From: Vulcanisaeta distributa DSM 14429
GTDB lineage: Archaea; Thermoproteota; Thermoprotei; Thermoproteales; Thermocladiaceae
Reading direction: 5' to 3'
DNA: 32,000 nucleotides
Assembly: GCF_000148385.1 (NCBI RefSeq)
Contig: NC_014537.1
Span: forward strand, 1,530,001 to 1,562,000
Below are positions 1,376 to 27,879 of this stretch, piece after piece (the stretch's first letter is position 1; every line of letters begins with the position of its first letter). The notes below the pieces were generated by a model. The model was given only the letters and a program-made list of their open reading frames with translations. It was not told the origin of the DNA and ran no database searches. Position numbers and translations under genes: made by a program.

Positions 1376-1474
1376 TGGTGCGGGGGCCGGGATTTGAACC
1401 CGGGACCTCCCGGTTATGAGCCCTACGCGGGGCTGCTGCCCCAGGGCGCTCTAGCCGGGCTAAGCTACCCCCGC
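1376..1474 (-). tRNA. tRNA with anticodon CAT (elongator Met or Ile2). It has an encoded CCA end and a 21-nt intron inside the anticodon stem (about position 29/30; intron at 1423-1443).
   Basis: The reverse complement reads GCGGGGG TA GCTT AGCCCGGCTA GAGC G CCC[TGGGGCAGCAGCCCCGCGTAG]GG CTCATAA CCGGG AGGTC CCGGG TTCAAAT CCCGG CCCCCGC A CCA. All four arms pair once the bracketed insert is removed. The G1-C72 pair argues against an initiator. A TATA-like ttttaaa lies about 30 nt upstream. Confidence 0.9.
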
Positions 1475-22007: not shown

Positions 22008-22973
22008 TTATAAAAACGCACCACTCTCTAAGTACTTAAGTACAACCCCAGCGATTGCACGTGCGAGTGGCGGTGGTACAGCCTCACCTATTTGATTAAA
22101 TTGAGAGTCCTTTGGACCAAAGAATACGTGATCATCAGGAAAACCCATGAGCCTCGCCTGCTCCCTAACAGTTAATACTCTATCCTCAAATGGATGCACA
22201 AAACGCACACTACCCATGACGGTTGGTGCAGGTTTCCATGGATTAAGCCTCACGAAGTTCCTAAACGAGCCTGTGGCACCCCTAAACCTGTAAAGGGCAT
22301 CATCCCAACCAAGCCTTGCTATACCCCTAACCTTCCTATCACTAATGGTCACATACTCATGATTGGGTATCCTAGGGTCCCCAGGTTCGGGCAAATCACC
22401 GATGGCATCCCACACAGTCAACACCCTACCCAGCTTCTCAGGCCTTATCGGTATATTACTAACGAAGACCCTACGCCTAATACTAGGCGTTCCGTAATCC
22501 TCAGCATGAAGCACATTGAAGTATATCCTCTCATAACCAGCCCGGGTAAACTCACTAATCAAGGCATCCCTCAACGGACCATCCATTATGTGAACCACAT
22601 TCTCAAGAACAAAGACCCTAGGTCTCAACTCACCAACTAGTCGAATGAACTCAAGGGTCAGCCTACCCAACTCATCAACATAAAGTCTATCAAGTGGGTC
22701 CCTAGCTCTCCTTGGATTGGTCTCAGTAAATGCCTCACAGGGACTACCACCAATTATCACGTCGGGCCTACCGCCAATGTACTTAATAATGTCCTTACCA
22801 CTAACATTCCTAATATCATCGGTGATCATCACAGCCTCTGGGAAGTTATAACTAAATGTTCGTGCTGCGTTAATATCGACTTCCACGCCAAGGGCCACAT
22901 CAAAACCCACATCCTTAAATCCTCTACTAAATCCTCCTGCCCCTGCGAATAGATCAACTACGGTATACCCCAT
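22008..22973 (-). CDS. DNA (cytosine-5)-methyltransferase
   Basis: It has motif I DLFAGAGGFSRGF, motif IV GGSPCEAF, motif VI VLENV, motif VIII SIRRRVF, a late motif TVREQARLMGFPD, and GEAVPPPLA. Confidence 0.9.
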   Translation of the reverse strand: MGYTVVDLFAGAGGFSRGFKDVGFDVALGVEVDINAARTFSYNFPEAVMITDDIRNVSGKDIIKYIGGRPDVIIGGSPCEAFTETNPRRARDPLDRLYVDELGRLTLEFIRLVGELRPRVFVLENVVHIMDGPLRDALISEFTRAGYERIYFNVLHAEDYGTPSIRRRVFVSNIPIRPEKLGRVLTVWDAIGDLPEPGDPRIPNHEYVTISDRKVRGIARLGWDDALYRFRGATGSFRNFVRLNPWKPAPTVMGSVRFVHPFEDRVLTVREQARLMGFPDDHVFFGPKDSQFNQIGEAVPPPLARAIAGVVLKYLESGAFL

Positions 22974-23287: not shown

Positions 23288-23369
23288 TGCGAATTAACGC
23301 AAGCAAAGAACTTACTTAAAAACCTTATGACCACCTTAACCAGGAATTACACAGTCATGAGGGTTACCG

Positions 23370-23410
23370 CCACACAGCCTCGGCTTGCCGAGTTTGCGTG
23401 TGTTGTGTGG
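23370..23410. other. Extended hairpin with a CUUG-type tetraloop
   Basis: ccacaca (23370-76) pairs with tgtgtgg (23404-10). The inner stem ctcgg/ccgag (23379-83 with 23388-92) closes the loop cttg. Confidence 0.4.
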
Positions 23411-23513
23411 TTTATGGCTGTTACGTTCGTGGGTTGTGAATAATACGTTATGACTAATCGCCGCCATGCGATGCGTTTCTCCGTGAAAGGCTCAACACCG
23501 ATTTCGGGAAGGC

Positions 23514-23521
23514 TATATAAA
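23514..23521 (+). promoter_or_regulatory. Strong TATA-like element (tatataaa) preceded by a purine-rich, BRE-like gggaagg. No ORF lies downstream.
   Basis: Read directly from the sequence. About 25-30 nt downstream begins a GC-rich structured stretch (ggggttgac...). This would fit an ncRNA promoter or a long-leader promoter. Confidence 0.35.
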
Positions 23522-23561
23522 CTACTTAGTTATTTTAGGGGTTGACTGATTTAGGCGATGA

Positions 23562-23615
23562 GCCCCCGAGGTATAGCGCCCGGGATTTGCCTGGGCGAAT
23601 TCCTCGGCTTTGGGT
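23562..23615. other. 54-nt GC-rich three-segment hairpin
   Basis: gccc/gggt (23562-65 with 23612-15), ccgagg/cctcgg (23566-71 with 23602-07) and cgcccggg/cctgggcg (23577-84 with 23590-97) surround the loop atttg. The G-T pairs are consistent with plus-strand RNA. Confidence 0.45.
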
Positions 23616-23737
23616 GATCCACCGCGACCGCTCCCGTGGGTAGTGTAGGGACTCGAGTGATGAAAAGCTCATTGAATGCATATGCAGTAAGTACAATGGC
23701 TATGATAACGATGCCGATGATAATAACAACTCAACTG

Positions 23738-23784
23738 CTTAATTACTTAGCTGTTAAGACTCCTAATCACTTAGCCGTTAAGAT
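23738..23784. repeat. Tandem direct repeat, two 23-nt units with a 24-nt period
   Basis: cttaattacttagctgttaagac (23738-60) and cctaatcacttagccgttaagat (23762-84) are identical at 19 of 23 positions. Confidence 0.8.
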
Positions 23785-23789
23785 GCTTA

Positions 23790-23955
23790 TTCCCCAAGCC
23801 CTTCCCTCGGTCCCACTCCCTCCCTCTCTTCCCGAAGCCGAGGCCTCCCTGGTCAGGGGGGCTCTCGGCACGTGAGGCCGGGCCGTGAGGAAGACGAGCC
23901 CCGAAACGGCAACCAGTAACGGCGGGAAGTTAGGTTTGAGGGAAGGGCTTGGGAA
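23790..23955. other. 166-nt GC-rich nested four-helix element, a candidate structured ncRNA of unknown class
   Basis: Four helices nest in order. The outer helix pairs cccaagcccttccctc (23793-808) with gagggaagggcttggg (23938-53), 16 perfect bp. Then cttcccg (23828-34) pairs with cgggaag (23923-29), ctggt (23849-53) with accag (23912-16), and ggggctc (23858-64) with gagcccc (23896-902). An apical cacg/cgtg stem closes the structure. The 60-nt line starting at 23821 is 43/60 G+C by hand count. Confidence 0.5.
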
Positions 23956-24041
23956 TTGAGTGCCTAAATGCAATTATGTACAGCAGTCCCTAGGCTGAAG
24001 AGGATAAAGTGTGATTAATTCATGTGGAGATTAAGAATTTG

Positions 24042-24059
24042 TTTCACGAAAACGTGAAA
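24042..24059. promoter_or_regulatory. Perfect palindrome tttcacg-aaaa-cgtgaaa, either an operator-like site or a small hairpin
   Basis: A 7-bp inverted repeat with a 4-nt spacer, read directly. It lies in the AT-rich stretch about 180 nt upstream of the ORF at 24241, next to the A/T-rich aaaaagttattaatg. Confidence 0.35.
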
Positions 24060-24099
24060 AAGTTATTAATGAATTCCCCAATACCCTAGCAAAATGGCA

Positions 24100-24211
24100 A
24101 GCAATTCCTGGGGAATTGCTGGATAAGTTGCTTTGTCAAGCCCCGTGGGCTCCTCACGGGGCGCCAACCCATTTTCAGTTCTGGGTGGCACGGCTCCGTG
24201 GGGATCGCCCA
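24100..24211. other. Cluster of four consecutive GC-rich hairpins immediately upstream of the 24241 ORF
   Basis: The stems are agcaattcc/ggaattgct (24100-20), gccccgtg/cacggggc (24140-62, 8 bp with a 7-nt loop), gccaaccca/tgggtggc (24163-89, one bulge), and tggg/ccca (24199-211). Confidence 0.45.
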
Positions 24212-24240
24212 TGGGGCATGAGGCATCAAGGTGAGGGAGT

Positions 24241-25665
24241 ATGGAGGGTGGAGAGAAGCGAATAAACGAGCCAAATAAAAACAAAGGGGAGGGAGAGGGA
24301 CCAAGGAAGGGCAGGGAAATACGCAAGCCACCAAATGAGGGCATCGACGACAACGCACCAAGTGAGGAGGAGGTTAGGGCGGCTATTTTGGAGCTTATTA
24401 AGAGACTGAGGAGGCATGAGGATGTGATTAGGAGTGGTAAGATGTTTAGTGAGATCAAGGCTGAGTTGGGGAGGTTGAGGAATGAGGTTGCGAAGTATGG
24501 CATTGATGGTTTTGAGAGGGTATTTGATGAAATGGAGAAATACGTCATGAGGGTAGAGGAGAAGTTCAAGAGGTACCATGCTAAGGAAATTCAAGGTCTC
24601 GTTGAAGAAATCGAACGGGGACAGATAAAACCAAAGGGAAGATCAATTAGATCTAGGTATATAACCCTGAGTTTTTCAACACCAAGCTATCAAGCAACAT
24701 ATCAAATATTGCTCAAGAAAATTGGGAGCATAACTGTCAAGGCACCCAAAGTTTTGCCGTACGATGTAATTACGCCACTGCAGTGGGGACTACTATTAAG
24801 CGACGCCACGGTGAGGATCTATTACCCAGCTATGGAGACTGTGAGCATGTTTCAGATCATGCTATTTATGTTAGCGTTTCCAGGTAGAATACGAATAGAT
24901 GCTACAAAGCTTGATGTTAATAAAGACGGCGTAAAAATAGTATGGCGTGTAGAATCAAAGGACTGGGACCCACCATCGTTGCCTGAGTGTGAGGATGAGG
25001 ATGAGTGTCAGCAAATTAATGAGGAGGATGCGTATATCGCATTATTTGCAGGTTTGATGGGAGATGGCTCATTTGGTACAATAAGGAGAAGGAATCACGT
25101 TTATCCAAGGATTCGTTTGACGACGACAGAAAAATATAGATGGGAACCGATACTAAAGAGTATAAAGATAAAGTATTATGAAGAACCTTATAAAAATGGC
25201 ATAATAAATATTACGTTTTGTTGTTCATATGCTGTTGAACTAATGCAAAGAATTAAGGGTATCTTTGTAGGAAAAGCACCAATATTGTTAAGATTGCTAG
25301 ATATATTAGTTAATGAAACAAAGATAGAAAGAGTAAGACACATTATGAACATGGAGATTAGGAAGTTGGGAGAGTTTAGTGTGGAATTGCTTGGCTATTT
25401 ATTTCATGTGAATATAAGTGGCAGTTGGAGTATTATGTTCATGAAAAGGATGAGTGATGTAGAGAGAGCGAATGCAATAGCAACAGAGGTCGCGCAATAT
25501 TACGGGCTTAGTAATGATGATATTAAGGTTTATCCTGAGTCCCATGCCATAATAATAAAGCCATCAGGCATACTAAAAATAATAATGAGGGATGAGAAGG
25601 TAAAGGAGGAAACCATAAGAGTACTCTGCAAAAATATCAAGACGAGAAGAGAAAAAGTAAAATAA
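24241..25665 (+). CDS. Free-standing protein with two LAGLIDADG-like motifs and a charged coiled-coil N-terminal extension. It may be a homing-endonuclease-derived protein. The start codon is uncertain.
   Basis: The second motif, DAYIALFAGLMGDGSFGTIRRR, fits the LAGLIDADG helix plus a beta-strand. An upstream degenerate copy (PLQWGLLLSDATVRIYY) lies about 90 aa earlier, as in double-motif monomeric enzymes. The N-terminal ~130 aa are Lys/Glu/Arg-rich. The first ~30 codons overlap a repeated non-coding motif. The 3' two-thirds is AT-rich (18/60 G+C in the line starting at 25141). Confidence 0.55.
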   Translation: MEGGEKRINEPNKNKGEGEGPRKGREIRKPPNEGIDDNAPSEEEVRAAILELIKRLRRHEDVIRSGKMFSEIKAELGRLRNEVAKYGIDGFERVFDEMEKYVMRVEEKFKRYHAKEIQGLVEEIERGQIKPKGRSIRSRYITLSFSTPSYQATYQILLKKIGSITVKAPKVLPYDVITPLQWGLLLSDATVRIYYPAMETVSMFQIMLFMLAFPGRIRIDATKLDVNKDGVKIVWRVESKDWDPPSLPECEDEDECQQINEEDAYIALFAGLMGDGSFGTIRRRNHVYPRIRLTTTEKYRWEPILKSIKIKYYEEPYKNGIINITFCCSYAVELMQRIKGIFVGKAPILLRLLDILVNETKIERVRHIMNMEIRKLGEFSVELLGYLFHVNISGSWSIMFMKRMSDVERANAIATEVAQYYGLSNDDIKVYPESHAIIIKPSGILKIIMRDEKVKEETIRVLCKNIKTRREKVK

Positions 25666-25711
25666 TTAGCATTTTGAAGAAAGTCATACCCACAAAGGGG
25701 GCGGCCGCGGT

Positions 25712-26311
25712 ATGTCTGAGTCGCCAGCTACTCAGGAGAACTGGATAGGCGTCAATGGTAGGTCGGTTAGGTATCTGGTATATGGTGATGGTAAACCCAT
25801 GGTCATGGTTCATGGATATAACTTCAACGCTAATGACTGGATTAACTGCTGCGGTAATGACTTCCCTGGGTTTAAAATATATGCGTTGGATATGCCCTAT
25901 GGACCTAGGTCGAGGAGTGATCACTTCATGCCTAAGGATGATAATGATTATGCCAATCACCTACATGCCATAATTAAGGCGTTGGGCATTGAAAACCCGA
26001 TACTTATTGGCGCGAGTTTGGGTGGCGAGACCGTACTTAGGTACCTAGCGCTTAACTACCCAGCGACTGCGGGTATAGTTATTGGTCCCGTGAGGGTACC
26101 CAGTATTGACCTGTCAAGGATAAGGGTTCCCGTAATGGGTATTTGGGGGAGTAATGATAAGGTCTCGGGTAGGGAGAACATGGAGGCCATGAGGAGGGCC
26201 GGCTTTAGGGTTGAGGTGATCAATGGAGCTGGTCACCCTGCTTACCTCGATAAGCCCAGGGAATTCGTGAGGTTAGTGCTTGATTTTTTAAGGTCCATTA
26301 ATGTCATTTAG
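25712..26311 (+). CDS. Alpha/beta-fold hydrolase
   Basis: It has HGYNF (oxyanion region), the nucleophile elbow GASLGG (GxSxG), and a C-terminal GAGHPAYLDKP (catalytic His region). At 199 aa it is compact. Confidence 0.75.
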   Translation: MSESPATQENWIGVNGRSVRYLVYGDGKPMVMVHGYNFNANDWINCCGNDFPGFKIYALDMPYGPRSRSDHFMPKDDNDYANHLHAIIKALGIENPILIGASLGGETVLRYLALNYPATAGIVIGPVRVPSIDLSRIRVPVMGIWGSNDKVSGRENMEAMRRAGFRVEVINGAGHPAYLDKPREFVRLVLDFLRSINVI

Positions 26312-26405
26312 TGTACAGTTAGCGGTTAATACCCATGTATTATCTACGTAATAATTACTTATTATAAGGTATAGCATAATTTAATGCTGGACTATAGTCT
26401 ATACC

Positions 26406-26924
26406 GTGGATAGGGTCGACCTGGCCTACGTAGTTGGTGTTGTGCTCGGTAAGGAGGATGTTGACGGAATTAGGGTTGCGTATACCACATACACGAGCAC
26501 ACTGGGTAAGTGGGTTAGGGACCCTGAGGGTGTTGTTCAATACCTAGTGAATATTGGCAAGGCTAAGGTTGTTAAGAGTGGCCAGGGTAGGAGTGTGATA
26601 TTGACGGATAGGGAGATGATGAGTAGGGTGAATAACCTATTAATGCCTAGGGAGGATGTTGACCCACTAACGCTGGTTATTGAAGGCATTAGGAAGCTGG
26701 CGAATCCCTTATCTGGCTATGCGGATATTGGTGATATTATTAAGTACATAGAGGGTAGACTTAATGTACCCACTAAGGAGGCTGAGGAATTCCTGATTAA
26801 GGTAATTAAGTTCCATAGGGGTAGGTTCGTATTTGCACACGGTGGTTCCCGCAGGTTAAAAATTGGTTCTTCATACTATGGCTTGATAAAGGTGGTGGGT
26901 GATGCAGAGACTCTTGGTTCCTAA
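26406..26924 (+). CDS. Hypothetical protein, possibly with a C-terminal winged-helix-like region. It is the upstream partner of the AAA+ gene.
   Basis: A 172-aa ORF with a GTG start that overlaps the next gene by about 23-26 nt. No family motif was recognised with confidence. Confidence 0.5.
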   Translation: MDRVDLAYVVGVVLGKEDVDGIRVAYTTYTSTLGKWVRDPEGVVQYLVNIGKAKVVKSGQGRSVILTDREMMSRVNNLLMPREDVDPLTLVIEGIRKLANPLSGYADIGDIIKYIEGRLNVPTKEAEEFLIKVIKFHRGRFVFAHGGSRRLKIGSSYYGLIKVVGDAETLGS

Positions 26925-27726
26925 TAGGGGCTCAGTTATAAGATTGCTTGGTCCTTCGTGGAGAGCGGCTAGGGAGAAGCTATTGAGTATGATTCGTGAG
27001 GATTACCAATTAATTGCAATAATTGGCAGGGCAGGCGCTGGGAAGACAACCTTACTCCTCAGTCTTGAGGGTATGGGTGATGGCGTCTTCATGTATACTG
27101 ACATGACTGAGGTTAGGGATAGGGACTTATCGGCGATTGTATCCACGGTATTCGCAGACAACACCCACGTGGTTAGGGATGTACAGGAGAGATTGAAGAA
27201 GACAGGTGTCAAGGGGTTGCTCAAGGCCTTCGCTAAGGCAAGCCCTGATGAGGTTGTTGAAAGCGCCAGGCTTAAGCCAATGGAGACCCTGAAATTACTT
27301 AATGATGCGATTGAGCTATTAGGTATGTCACCACTGGTGATTGGAGTTGATGAGGGCCTGCTTAGTCAGGATGATCCGAGGGCAATGGACTTCATAAATT
27401 CAATACACGCATTTAGGAATAATATGCAGGCAATGCCATCAACTAAAATAGTAATAACACTACTCCCTGACGTGGTTAACCTAATATCGAAGGTCGATAC
27501 ACCACTATTTGACATACTGAGACTAGGCGCAATAACACTACCAGACTACGTAACAAGGGAGGACCTAAAGGAGGTTATTCAGGAATACGGACTGAGCGAG
27601 GTAGATCTAAGCAAGATAGAGGCGCTGGGCCCATTAACCATGAGACAGCTCATATGCTTAATGAACACAAAAATGGATGTAATAAAGTGCGGAATAGACA
27701 CAGCAGGAGAAATATCAATAGAATGA
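26899..27726 (+). CDS. AAA+/P-loop ATPase whose motif order resembles the Orc1/Cdc6 ATPase module, without a C-terminal winged helix. The likely start is the ATG at 26902.
   Basis: It has Walker A GRAGAGKTT, Walker B VIGVDEGLL, a sensor-1-like KIVITLLPD, and a lid segment LRLGAITLPDYVTREDLKEVIQEYG that resembles the initiator-clade pattern (i.F.pY...eL..IL). At 275 aa it is long enough only for the base and lid. Confidence 0.6.
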   Translation: MMQRLLVPNRGSVIRLLGPSWRAAREKLLSMIREDYQLIAIIGRAGAGKTTLLLSLEGMGDGVFMYTDMTEVRDRDLSAIVSTVFADNTHVVRDVQERLKKTGVKGLLKAFAKASPDEVVESARLKPMETLKLLNDAIELLGMSPLVIGVDEGLLSQDDPRAMDFINSIHAFRNNMQAMPSTKIVITLLPDVVNLISKVDTPLFDILRLGAITLPDYVTREDLKEVIQEYGLSEVDLSKIEALGPLTMRQLICLMNTKMDVIKCGIDTAGEISIE

Positions 27727-27780
27727 GACTTAAAATGACCTTATCTCTCGATATATAAAACGTAAAATAATGACTTATGT

Positions 27781-27879
27781 TGGAGCCCCGGCCGGGATTC
27801 GAACCCGGGACCTCCCGCTTACAAGGCTTGCACGGGGCTGCCGCCCCAGGGCGCTCCGACCAGGCTGAGCTACCGGGGC
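27781..27879 (-). tRNA. tRNA-Thr (anticodon TGT) with an encoded CCA end and a 21-nt intron inside the anticodon stem (about position 29/30; intron at 27828-27848)
   Basis: The reverse complement reads GCCCCGG TA GCTC AGCCTGGTCG GAGC G CCC[TGGGGCGGCAGCCCCGTGCAA]GC CTTGTAA GCGGG AGGTC CCGGG TTCGAAT CCCGG CCGGGGC T CCA. A TATA-like cttaaaatt lies about 25 nt upstream. Confidence 0.9.

What the first reader, a model, noticed from the sequence alone, without database searches (positions are those of the whole stretch)
23789..24320. One ~36-nt motif in three copies gives mutually exclusive long-range pairing that reaches into the start of the downstream ORF
The pyrimidine-rich segment 23789-23826 is the reverse complement of two different downstream purine-rich segments. 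The proximal one is 23938-23955 (16 perfect bp, and it forms the outer helix of the nested element). The distal one is 24286-24320, with about 30 matches over about 36 aligned positions by hand alignment (gggagggag-gggacc-agg-aagggc-ggg-aat). The distal copy lies 45-80 nt inside the annotated 24241 ORF. There it encodes the low-complexity stretch GEGEGPRKGRE. If all three copies are on one transcript, the 5' arm can pair with either partner. That is the logic of a riboregulator or RNA thermometer controlling the translation initiation region. Alternatively, copies 1 and 3 could be the terminal inverted repeats of a ~530-bp non-autonomous (MITE-like) element.
Basis: seen in the sequence. Interest (0 to 1): 0.7.

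Follow-up and report, generated by a model that had tools for sequence, protein, structure and literature searches.

The report
Bistable leader RNA on archaeal endonuclease gene
The three-copy motif is real. It belongs to a conserved, roughly 700-base structured leader in front of a mobile LAGLIDADG (homing-endonuclease-like) gene found only in the hot-spring archaeon Vulcanisaeta. This RNA is predicted to flip between two folds, and I found no description of it in Rfam or in the papers I could search.

Summary
Arm 1 (23784-23830) pairs with copy 2 (16 perfect bp, -54 kcal/mol) or with copy 3 inside the ORF (-60 kcal/mol). Copy 3 is the best partner in the whole 32 kb; the next unrelated site scores -42.

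The window is from Vulcanisaeta distributa. About 2.3 kb (~23360-25735) is an insertion that three related genomes lack at this locus. It carries a promoter, a ~700-nt non-coding leader and a 474-aa ORF whose predicted fold is a double LAGLIDADG endonuclease.

Paralogues only 26-34% identical in protein share the leader at ~80% nucleotide identity. The 22-nt core of copy 3 is 100% identical in four loci, synonymous sites included. One locus keeps all three copies. Another keeps only arm 1 and copy 2. Three have no leader.

Folding predicts a bistable RNA. The nascent transcript forms arm 1:copy 2; the full-length RNA switches to arm 1:copy 3. Predicted SD/AUG accessibility does not change, so this is not a classical thermometer.

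A second pairing joins the leader (23606-42) to the ORF's 3' end (25687-729), with nine compensatory pairs between two loci.

The MITE, BHB-intron and Rfam readings are not supported. No transcript data exist, so function is inferred.

The parts
23360..25735 (+). Insertion specific to V. distributa: promoter, leader and LAGLIDADG-type ORF. Boundaries are approximate.
   Evidence: In three related Vulcanisaeta genomes (L004, L005, L006) the Zn-ribbon gene and the hydrolase gene are only about 100-150 nt apart. Homology to the window stops at 23324-23359 and resumes at 25736.
23513..23522 (+). Conserved TATA-like box CTATATAAAC. The inferred transcription start is near 23545.
   Evidence: The box is the same (identical in L028, TATATAA core kept in L030) and in the same register. 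In L030 the ORF's ATG follows this box by about 22 nt, giving a leaderless mRNA. The start site itself is inferred, not mapped.
23545..24240 (+). Non-coding structured leader of about 700 nt.
   Evidence: Its nucleotide identity is 77-80% to L008 and 70-84% to L028, although the proteins are only 24-26% identical. No conserved ORF is present. No Rfam family matches.
23606..23642 (+). IR-L, the 5' strand of the 5'-3' panhandle.
   Evidence: It pairs with 25687-25729 at -49 kcal/mol. It is the best partner of the 3' motif anywhere in the 32 kb.
23784..23830 (+).
   Evidence: The core ACTCCCTCCCTC is invariant in the window, L008 and L028.
23837..23869 (+). Conserved inner hairpin GCCGAGGC...GCUCUCGGC.
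   Evidence: It is predicted at both 37 and 85 C. The same hairpin sequence is present in L008 and L028.
23915..23960 (+). Copy 2, purine-rich, the proximal partner of arm 1. Its perfect core is 23938-23953.
   Evidence: The duplex with arm 1 is -53.7 kcal/mol in the window, -68.8 in L008 and -62.0 in L028.
24140..24217 (+). Conserved GC-rich hairpin just upstream of the ribosome-binding site.
   Evidence: It is predicted at 37 and 85 C. It is conserved in L008, L027 and L007, with G-U to G-C changes.
24230..24243 (+). Shine-Dalgarno-like GGUGAGGGAG followed by the ATG of the ORF.
   Evidence: Read directly from the sequence. Indels among the four loci in codons 1-27 are multiples of 3, so this start is translated.
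24283..24330 (+). Copy 3, purine-rich, the distal partner of arm 1, covering codons 15-30. Its core is 24284-24305.
   Evidence: The duplex with arm 1 is -60.4 kcal/mol in the window and -62.5 in L008. The core is 100% identical in four loci while the flanks are 58-81% identical. The encoded peptide lies in a segment with pLDDT below 50.
24241..25665 (+). 474-aa ORF with a predicted double LAGLIDADG fold and a C-terminal frameshift.
   Evidence: AlphaFold2 gives pLDDT 82. The Foldseek top hit is I-Tsp061I, and hits 1-9 and all but two of the top 50 (TliVMA intein chains carrying a homing-endonuclease domain) are LAGLIDADG-fold proteins. D188 and G274-D275-G276 are invariant in the family. Family homology continues in another reading frame at 25626-25715.
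25687..25729 (+). IR-R, the 3' strand of the panhandle. It includes the conserved 23-nt motif ACCCACAAAGGGGGCGGCCGCGG.
   Evidence: The motif is 100% identical over 23 nt in L008 and L027 and 92% in L030. It pairs with IR-L, and this pairing covaries with the one in L028.

Best explanation
The three copies are functional parts of one RNA. That RNA is the ~700-nt 5' leader plus the first ~30 codons of the mRNA of a mobile, Vulcanisaeta-specific LAGLIDADG (homing-endonuclease-like) gene cassette.

Transcription is inferred to start near 23545 from the cassette's own promoter, so all three copies would lie on one transcript. As the RNA is made, arm 1 first closes a GC-rich hairpin with copy 2. 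Once codons 15-30 (copy 3) exist, arm 1 can swap to copy 3. That swap locks the ribosome-binding site, the AUG and the first 27 codons inside a 540-nt closed domain with a ~35-bp helix across the early coding region. Holding copy 3 single-stranded, as a translating ribosome would, sends arm 1 back to copy 2.

I propose a bistable, translation-coupled or kinetically set switch that limits output of a potentially toxic endonuclease. The limit would act through an early elongation block or through mRNA fate. It would not act by masking the SD/AUG.

The switch is nested in a 5'-3' panhandle (23606-23642 with 25687-25729) that ties the ends of the cassette transcript together.

Shown: the complementarity, its conservation and covariation, the insertion, and the predicted protein fold. 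Inferred: the transcription start, the two folds, and any regulatory output.
For: - The complementarity exceeds chance.
- L008, whose protein is only 26% identical, keeps all three copies with comparable energies: -68.8 and -62.5 kcal/mol, against -53.7 and -60.4 in the window.
- Arm 1's AA changes to UU in L008. This is matched on the partner strands: UU in window copy 2 and AA in L008 copy 3. L008 and L028 also differ by a U-A to C-G change in the arm 1:copy 2 helix.
- The copy 3 core is 100% identical in four loci, including 7 synonymous sites, while its flanks are 58-81% identical. The peptide it encodes is predicted to be disordered.
- Across all the helices there are 21 G-U pairs against 4 A-C mismatches on the + strand, as expected for an RNA read from this strand.
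- A conserved TATA box lies upstream of all three copies. A leaderless paralogue starts translation about 22 nt after the same box.
- In both the window and L008 the nascent RNA folds arm 1:copy 2 (22-32 bp) and the full-length RNA folds arm 1:copy 3 (27-33 bp). Blocking copy 3 restores arm 1:copy 2. At 85 C the two states differ by only about 3.3-3.5 kcal/mol by MFE and by 1.2-6.4 kcal/mol by ensemble energy.
- The panhandle shows 9 double compensatory changes in 12 positions between the window and L028.
Against: - There is no transcript, structure-probing or expression evidence of any kind.
- Predicted SD/AUG accessibility is the same in both states, so the output step is unknown.
- L028 keeps arm 1 and copy 2 but has no convincing copy 3 (-31 kcal/mol).
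- Three family loci (L009, L030, L032) have no leader at all, so the leader is dispensable for the gene.
- Only two or three independent sequences cover each helix, so covariation statistics are weak for the three-copy motif itself.
- The window's ORF carries a C-terminal frameshift and may be decaying.
- Energy models at 85 C are extrapolations.
Confidence: 0.42

Rival explanations
1. The repeats are an evolutionary by-product at the DNA level. A hairpin-forming (MITE-like) module with arm 1 and copy 2 as its inverted ends, plus a stray third copy, was inserted or duplicated in the 5' end of one family member. It was then spread among paralogues by gene conversion. It has no switch function.
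For: - The leader is present or absent as a block among paralogues, and its distribution does not follow protein similarity. P0128, which has the leader, is 36% identical to the leaderless P0184 but only 26% identical to P0001.
- The interior of the arm 1-copy 2 hairpin varies in length by 80-150 nt.
- L028 lacks copy 3.
- Assemblies break inside or next to the leader in L003, L007, L008 and L027.
Against: - No target-site duplication is present.
- Conservation extends about 240 nt left of arm 1 and about 60 nt right of copy 3.
- The motif was not found outside these leaders in 148 kb of Vulcanisaeta DNA.
- The copy 3 core is invariant while its flanks are not.
- The G-U over A-C excess of 21:4 points to RNA-level selection.
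- The panhandle covaries across deep divergence, which recent gene conversion cannot explain.
Confidence: 0.22
2. The cassette is an intron-like or processing element. The long helices (arm 1:copy 3 and IR-L:IR-R with its conserved 3-nt bulge) are recognition stems for an RNA endonuclease. Cleavage, possibly followed by ligation or circularisation, would release the endonuclease mRNA and free the downstream host mRNA.
For: - The closest structural match of the protein is an archaeal intron-encoded endonuclease.
- The ends are conserved around a divergent interior, as described for archaeal rRNA intron cores (PMC4496867).
- The panhandle has the same geometry in the window and L028: a 7-bp inner helix, a 3-nt bulge on the 3' strand, and a long outer helix.
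- The cassette abuts the start codon of a co-oriented host gene in the window and in L028. A co-oriented gene also follows closely in L009, and further downstream in L030.
Against: - No canonical bulge-helix-bulge motif is formed by the arms or by the IRs. A scan of the cassette found 3 BHB-like motifs against 1-6 in shuffles, and none lay at these helices.
- The element is not inside an rRNA or tRNA gene.
- There is no evidence of cleavage or circles.
Confidence: 0.15
3. The purine motif (GGGAGGGAG..., also present at the ribosome-binding site) is a binding site for a trans factor. The factor could be the encoded LAGLIDADG protein acting like a maturase or autorepressor, or the 16S rRNA 3' end. 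In this reading arm 1 is a built-in competitor.
For: - The SD region 24228-24239 is a 12-nt direct repeat of the copy 3 core (D8), and 24233-24240 is an exact complement of arm 1 positions 23815-23822.
- LAGLIDADG proteins include RNA-binding maturases; the hit list contains the bI3 maturase and I-AniI.
- The nucleic-acid-level invariance of copy 3 fits a binding site as well as it fits a pairing partner.
Against: - The match between the SD region and arm 1 is not conserved in L007, L008 or L027.
- Nothing tested here bears on protein-RNA binding.
- The covariation between the arms is better explained by direct pairing.
Confidence: 0.1

Closest known systems
Archaeal rRNA introns that carry LAGLIDADG homing endonuclease genes (for example the Thermoproteus 16S intron encoding I-Tsp061I and the Vulcanisaeta intron encoding I-Vdi141I)
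   Same: - The protein fold is the same, and the best PDB match is I-Tsp061I.
- The host lineage is the same (Thermoproteales).
- Conserved RNA 'cores' near both ends pair with each other around a divergent ORF (PMC4496867).
   Different: - The element is not in an rRNA or tRNA gene but between two protein genes.
- No bulge-helix-bulge motif is present.
- The protein is more than twice as long, with an extra ~170-aa N-terminal region.
- It has its own promoter and a ~700-nt leader.
- No Pfam family reaches its threshold.
Translational control of phage T4 homing endonuclease genes by mRNA secondary structure (I-TevI and related free-standing genes). This comparison rests on my own knowledge and was not checked in the library.
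   Same: - A selfish endonuclease gene sits in an intergenic position.
- Its expression is thought to be restrained by RNA structure in its own leader.
   Different: - In T4 a short hairpin sequesters the ribosome-binding site, and alternative promoters decide whether it forms.
- Here the pairing partners are 110 and 460 nt away, the SD/AUG is not predicted to be masked, and a single promoter is inferred.
MITEs (non-autonomous elements with terminal inverted repeats)
   Same: A 41-47-nt imperfect inverted repeat brackets about 540 bp.
   Different: - No target-site duplication is present.
- Conservation does not stop at the repeats.
- Copies were found only in leaders of one gene family.
Archaeal pre-rRNA processing stems (long inverted repeats flanking 16S and 23S rRNA). 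This comparison rests on my own knowledge.
   Same: Long-range helices of 35-45 bp join sequences on either side of a large RNA segment, as IR-L and IR-R do.
   Different: - Those stems contain a bulge-helix-bulge cleavage motif; here there is only a single 3-nt bulge.
- The enclosed RNA here is an mRNA.
OMEGA systems (IscB/TnpB with their omega RNAs). The title and abstract of PMC13565253 were seen; the architectural details given here are from my own knowledge.
   Same: A large structured RNA is encoded next to, and overlaps, the end of a mobile-element nuclease ORF. It is better conserved at the nucleotide level than the protein.
   Different: - The nuclease family is unrelated.
- There is no evidence of a guide segment or of RNA-protein association.
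- The comparison is an analogy only.

Membership tests
RNA thermometer / ribosome-binding-site-masking riboregulator | The SD and/or AUG is base-paired in the OFF state and free in the ON state. | tested here: not met
   The mean predicted unpaired probability of SD..AUG+3 is the same with arm 1:copy 2 or arm 1:copy 3 enforced. It is 0.66 vs 0.68 in the window and 0.75 vs 0.77 in L008 at 85 C. Copy 3 lies at +45 to +90 relative to the AUG.
RNA thermometer / ribosome-binding-site-masking riboregulator | The equilibrium between the structures shifts with temperature over the physiological range. | tested here: not met
   Arm 1:copy 3 dominates the predicted ensemble from 37 to 95 C in both loci. 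This is prediction only; measurement was not possible.
Bistable / alternative-pairing RNA switch | One segment has two mutually exclusive partners of similar stability, and this arrangement is conserved in relatives. | tested here: met
   Duplex energies are -53.7 and -60.4 kcal/mol in the window and -68.8 and -62.5 in L008. The ensemble energies of the two enforced states differ by 1.2-6.4 kcal/mol at 85 C. The nascent and full-length folds differ in the same way in both loci. This feature is not kept in L028.
MITE | Terminal inverted repeats. | tested here: met
   23784-23824 matches the reverse complement of 24287-24325 at 35 of 41 columns.
MITE | A target-site duplication directly flanks the repeats. 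| tested here: not met
   The flanks are ...GATGCTT|ATTCC and GGGAAAT|ACGCAAG, and they share no direct repeat. Instead the inverted repeat simply fades out.
MITE | Many dispersed copies that are independent of any one gene, with homology ending at the repeats. | tested here: not met
   In 148 kb from at least 7 Vulcanisaeta sources the motif occurs only in leaders of this gene family. Homology extends beyond both arms. A whole-genome count in V. distributa could not be made, because the genome scan did not return this genome.
Archaeal bulge-helix-bulge intron | A BHB (or relaxed BHL) motif at the two junctions. | tested here: not met
   A scanner for 4-bp/3-nt/4-bp/3-nt/4-bp motifs found 3 in the cassette against 1-6 in shuffles, and none lay at the arms or IRs. 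The IR helix has only one 3-nt bulge.
Archaeal bulge-helix-bulge intron | Interrupts an rRNA, tRNA or other gene whose function is restored by excision. | tested here: not met
   The cassette lies between the Zn-ribbon gene and the hydrolase gene. Rfam finds no RNA gene here.
LAGLIDADG homing endonuclease (protein) | A double alpha-beta-beta-alpha-beta-beta-alpha fold with two LAGLIDADG helices. | tested here: met
   The AlphaFold2 model has pLDDT 82.2. Foldseek gives probability 1.00 to I-Tsp061I, E-DreI, the bI3 maturase and I-AniI, and hits 1-9 and all but two of the top 50 (TliVMA intein chains carrying a homing-endonuclease domain) are LAGLIDADG-fold proteins.
LAGLIDADG homing endonuclease (protein) | A conserved acidic residue at the end of each LAGLIDADG helix. 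| tested here: met
   D188 and G274-D275-G276 are invariant in 20 family members.
LAGLIDADG homing endonuclease (protein) | Sequence match to curated family models. | tested here: not met
   No Pfam hit for P0001. One of 20 members hits LAGLIDADG_2 at E = 0.0013. The family profile matches 2dch at E = 0.029.
LAGLIDADG homing endonuclease (protein) | Presence/absence polymorphism at a fixed site, indicating mobility. | tested here: met
   The cassette is present in V. distributa and absent from the same intergenic site in three relatives. Family members sit in unrelated contexts, and many are split or truncated.
LAGLIDADG homing endonuclease (protein) | Site-specific DNA cleavage of the empty site. 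| not testable with these tools
   This needs purified protein and the empty-site sequence of L004-L006.

The most novel reading that the evidence does not exclude
The cassette could be a new kind of self-contained mobile unit in Crenarchaeota: a LAGLIDADG gene wrapped in its own RNA machine. In this reading the 5'-3' panhandle, with its conserved bulge, is a processing or circularisation site. It would excise the endonuclease mRNA from the read-through transcript and so spare the host gene that the cassette landed in front of. That would make it an intron-like solution without a BHB motif. The arm 1/copy 2/copy 3 switch would time translation, and the leader might be bound by the endonuclease itself, as an RNA-protein particle like maturase-intron complexes.
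Probability: 0.12. Interest if true: 0.85.

Novelty: new variant of a known kind. Interest (0 to 1): 0.62.

Why it matters
Homing endonuclease genes in archaea are known from rRNA/tRNA introns and from inteins. A free-standing, promoter-bearing LAGLIDADG cassette with a large conserved leader RNA would widen that picture.

It would also give a rare example of a long, conserved, bistable mRNA leader in a hyperthermophile that grows at 85-90 C. Most crenarchaeal mRNAs are leaderless, and long-range RNA pairing at such temperatures is poorly studied.

The cassette sits directly on the start codon of a host gene. It therefore offers a concrete system for asking how a selfish element avoids silencing its neighbour.

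The family's highly divergent DNA-binding bodies may also be a source of thermostable meganuclease specificities.

Tried and rejected
- **Rfam:** No family matched, at gathering thresholds or at E <= 10, in the window leader or in the L008 and L028 leaders. This includes RNase P type T, SRP RNA, group I/II introns and GIR1.
- **C/D-box or K-turn sRNA at 23556-23740:** There was only a weak SNORD24 hit at E = 2.9. The box-like words are not conserved in L008. GAUGAGC is better explained as one strand of the conserved helix 23556-63/23667-74.
- **BHB intron:** Checked by hand and with a scanner; not supported.
- **Genome-wide dispersal:** The single genome-contig scan returned only a chance hit in a Thermotogae MAG and did not return V. 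distributa, so it was uninformative. The single metagenome scan gave 16 chance hits with no homology beyond the pattern.
- **Small proteins in the leader:** The ORFs 23636-23875 (+) and 23767-23973 (-) are disrupted by the length changes in L008 and L028.
- **Extension of the arm 1/copy 3 repeat beyond about 45 nt at the DNA level:** Not supported.
- **Internal promoter near 24062:** The TATA-like word there is not conserved in L008 or L028.
- **Word-indexed protein searches:** They found almost nothing. Only the exhaustive HMMER search revealed the family.
Full report
**Observation.**
- The 16-mer CCCAAGCCCTTCCCTC occurs at 23793-23808 and, reverse-complemented, at 23938-23953. No other site matches within three mismatches, and 0.23 matches are expected by chance.
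- A local alignment of 23784-23824 with the reverse complement of 24287-24325 gives 35 identities in 41 columns.
- This genome's coding strand is purine-rich, so I asked whether such a match is cheap. I ran RNAduplex of arm 1 against every 45-nt stretch of the + strand of the window. The distal site ranks first (-58 kcal/mol) and the proximal site second (-50). The best unrelated site scores -41.7. The background mean is -13.4 with sd 6.9.
- The distal copy encodes residues 16-26, GEGEGPRKGRE.
Each copy is really about 40-47 nt long.

**Where this lies.**
- The 474-aa ORF is an annotated hypothetical protein of Vulcanisaeta distributa, on a 2.37-Mb contig.
- I used the neighbouring fructose-1,6-bisphosphatase gene as an anchor and fetched the same locus from three related Vulcanisaeta genomes. 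In all three the Zn-ribbon gene and the alpha/beta-hydrolase gene are only about 100-150 nt apart.
- Homology to the window stops at 23324-23359 and resumes at 25736.
- About 2.3 kb of the window, comprising the whole ORF-free stretch and the ORF, is therefore an insertion specific to V. distributa. It replaced the hydrolase's own upstream region.

**The protein.**
- Pfam finds nothing, and word-indexed searches found no relatives.
- An exhaustive HMMER search found 59 cluster representatives of 350-570 aa. Every member that carries a source name is from Vulcanisaeta. V. distributa DSM 14429 has at least two further paralogues, and many members are split or truncated.
- The alignment has invariant D188 and G274-D275-G276, in the motif LFAGLMGDGSF.
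- An AlphaFold2 model built on this alignment has pLDDT 82. Residues 1-37 are below 50.
- Foldseek against the PDB puts the archaeal intron-encoded endonuclease I-Tsp061I first. Hits 1-9 and all but two of the top 50 are LAGLIDADG-fold proteins; the two exceptions are TliVMA intein chains that carry a homing-endonuclease domain.
- Sequence-level support is marginal.
- I file the protein as LAGLIDADG by predicted fold and catalytic residues, with an extra N-terminal region of about 170 residues.
- The window's copy has a frameshift near its 3' end. Family homology continues in another frame through 25715.

**The leader is a family feature.** I fetched DNA for several relatives.
- L008 encodes a protein only 26% identical. 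Its upstream region is nevertheless 77-80% identical in nucleotides to window 23650-24318 and contains all three copies.
- L007 and L027 are short contigs that begin inside the leader. They keep 24183-24381 and 24042-24322 at 78-83% identity.
- L028 (Vulcanisaeta sp. JCM 14467) keeps 23479-24127.
- L009, L030 and L032 have no leader. L030 keeps only the segment homologous to 23408-23542.
- Beyond the first ~45 codons the ORFs do not align at the DNA level. The exception is a 23-nt motif at the very 3' end (25688-25710), which is 100% identical in L008 and L027.
- Leader presence does not follow protein similarity. Leader-bearing P0128 is 36% identical to leaderless P0184.

**The three copies in relatives.**
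- Duplex energies, in kcal/mol:

| Locus | arm 1:copy 2 | arm 1:copy 3 |
|---|---|---|
| window | -53.7 | -60.4 |
| L008 | -68.8 | -62.5 |
| L028 | -62.0 | -31.4 (no real copy 3) |

- Some substitutions are matched on the partner strand. Arm 1 has AA in the window, facing UU in copy 2. Arm 1 has UU in L008, facing AA in copy 3. L008 and L028 differ by U-A to C-G within arm 1:copy 2.
- The 22-nt core of copy 3 is 100% identical in the four loci that have it, including all synonymous positions. The 43 nt before it are 78% identical and the 80 nt after it about 58%.
- The peptide it encodes lies in the part of the model predicted to be disordered.
- Indels in codons 1-27 are multiples of three, so the stretch is translated. 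The invariance nevertheless looks like a constraint at the nucleic-acid level.
- Across all helices there are 21 G-U pairs and only 4 A-C mismatches on the + strand. This favours an RNA read from the + strand. The counting is biased, because G-U pairs extend the predicted helices, and the loci are not independent.

**One transcript?**
- The TATA-like box CTATATAAAC at 23513-23522 and its surroundings are conserved in L028 and L030.
- In L030 the ORF's ATG follows the box by about 22 nt. This is the arrangement of a leaderless crenarchaeal mRNA (the usual spacing is from my own knowledge).
- By homology the window's transcript should start near 23545, upstream of all three copies.
- A TATA-like word near 24062 is not conserved.
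- All of this is inference. No transcript data were available.

**Predicted behaviour.** In both the window and L008:
- An RNA that ends just before copy 3 folds with arm 1:copy 2 (22-32 bp).
- The full-length RNA has arm 1:copy 3 (27-33 bp) in its minimum-energy fold and ensemble, from 37 to 95 C.
- Holding copy 3 single-stranded returns arm 1 to copy 2.
- At 85 C the states differ by about 3.3-3.5 kcal/mol by MFE. With either helix enforced, the ensemble energies differ by 1.2 kcal/mol (L008) to 6.4 kcal/mol (window).
- The predicted unpaired probability of the SD/AUG is the same in both states, and no temperature shift is predicted.

The RNA thus looks bistable, but not like a thermometer or a ribosome-binding-site mask. 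What differs between the states is whether codons 15-30 sit in a ~35-bp helix and whether the start region is enclosed in a 540-nt domain.

**A second long-range pairing.**
- The conserved 3' motif is complementary to the leader. 23606-23642 pairs with 25687-25729 at -49 kcal/mol.
- This is the best site in the window for that motif: -40.2 against -30.4 for the next, with mean -14 and sd 4.7.
- In L028 the equivalent pairing is -79 to -89 kcal/mol.
- The geometry is the same in both loci: a 7-bp inner helix GUGGGUA/UACCCA(C/U), a 3-nt bulge on the 3' strand, and a long outer helix.
- Nine of the twelve outer positions next to the bulge differ on both strands between the two loci and still pair. 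This is the strongest covariation in the locus.
- The 3' strand runs into the first codons of the hydrolase. Those codons are extra relative to the three relatives, so the cassette seems to supply that gene's present start codon.

**Alternatives tested.**
- *MITE.* There is no target-site duplication. Homology extends beyond both arms. The motif occurs only in these leaders within 148 kb of Vulcanisaeta DNA. The genome-wide test failed because the genome scan did not return this genome. Metagenome and viral scans gave only chance hits or nothing.
- *BHB intron.* No bulge-helix-bulge motif occurs at any of the helices, and BHB-like motifs are not enriched.
- *Known RNA families.* None matched.
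- *C/D-box sRNA.* Not conserved.

**Verdict.**
- The finding is real and belongs to something larger: a mobile LAGLIDADG gene cassette of Vulcanisaeta whose mRNA carries a conserved, multi-domain leader with two sets of long-range pairings.
- The best reading is a bistable leader that restrains or times expression of the endonuclease (confidence about 0.4).
- The rivals are a relic of nested insertion (0.22), an intron-like processing element (0.15) and a factor-binding site (0.1).
- The main weaknesses are the absence of any transcript data, the small number of independent sequences (two or three per helix), the loss of copy 3 in L028, and the existence of leaderless paralogues.

Noticed in passing
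window 25687-25745: The hydrolase gene (ATG at 25712) has five or more extra N-terminal codons relative to its orthologues in L004-L006. These codons lie in the 3' strand of the cassette's panhandle. The cassette therefore appears to provide the gene's current start codon and to have displaced its promoter by 2.3 kb.
   Followed up: partly
window 25626-25715: Homology to the C-termini of other family members (...PTKGAAA...) continues in a different reading frame after the annotated stop at 25665. The window's endonuclease gene is therefore frameshifted and truncated at its 3' end.
   Followed up: partly
L030 5499-5573 and 8393-8737: A tRNA gene starts 8 nt after the stop of the leaderless family member. 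About 3 kb further on, on the opposite strand, lies a 3' fragment of another family member (57% identical to P0141 residues 402-506). It ends in the same 3' motif.
   Followed up: partly
window 23740-23787: A tandem 24-nt duplication (TAATTACTTAGCTGTTAAGACTCC / TAATCACTTAGCCGTTAAGATGCT) lies directly upstream of arm 1. L008 has a single copy.
   Followed up: no
window 24228-24240 and 23815-23822: The ribosome-binding region AAGGTGAGGGAG is a 12-nt direct repeat of the copy 3 core. GAGGGAGU (24233-24240) is an exact complement of arm 1's ACUCCCUC. This makes it a possible fourth, short partner, but it is not conserved in L007, L008 or L027.
   Followed up: partly
L028 3030-4217: The leader of the JCM 14467 paralogue is about 1.2 kb long. 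It contains an extra pyrimidine-rich stretch after arm 1, a second copy of the 5' module (AGCGATGAGCC...) near the ORF start, and a TATA-like word (GGTATTTAAAC) at about 3749. The annotated 562-aa product probably includes about 72 spurious N-terminal residues read from this GC-rich RNA.
   Followed up: no
L003 (= window 23886-27807) and the starts of L007, L008 and L027: Independent short-read assemblies break inside the leader: at window-equivalent positions 23886, 24178, 23641 and 24031. This is as expected if parts of the leader are repeated among paralogues in those genomes. L008 breaks exactly at the inner end of IR-L.
   Followed up: no
window 1376-1474, 2707-2781, 27781-27879: There are three tRNA genes, two of them with introns of about 21-25 nt. 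ARAGORN could not assign an anticodon to the one at 27781-27879.
   Followed up: no
window 23360-23400: At the left junction of the insertion lies a perfect 6-bp GC hairpin (CTCGGC TT GCCGAG) followed by TTT. It matches neither the relatives' intergenic region nor the other family loci.
   Followed up: no
Genome-contig collection: A 20-base pattern that occurs twice in the window found no Vulcanisaeta record in the species-representative genome collection. The source genome seems to be absent or masked there.
   Followed up: no
L004 6860-7848 and L006 6919-7834: The C-5 cytosine methylase gene next to the insertion site (window 22008-22973) is split into two or three ORFs in two of the related draft genomes.
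   Followed up: no
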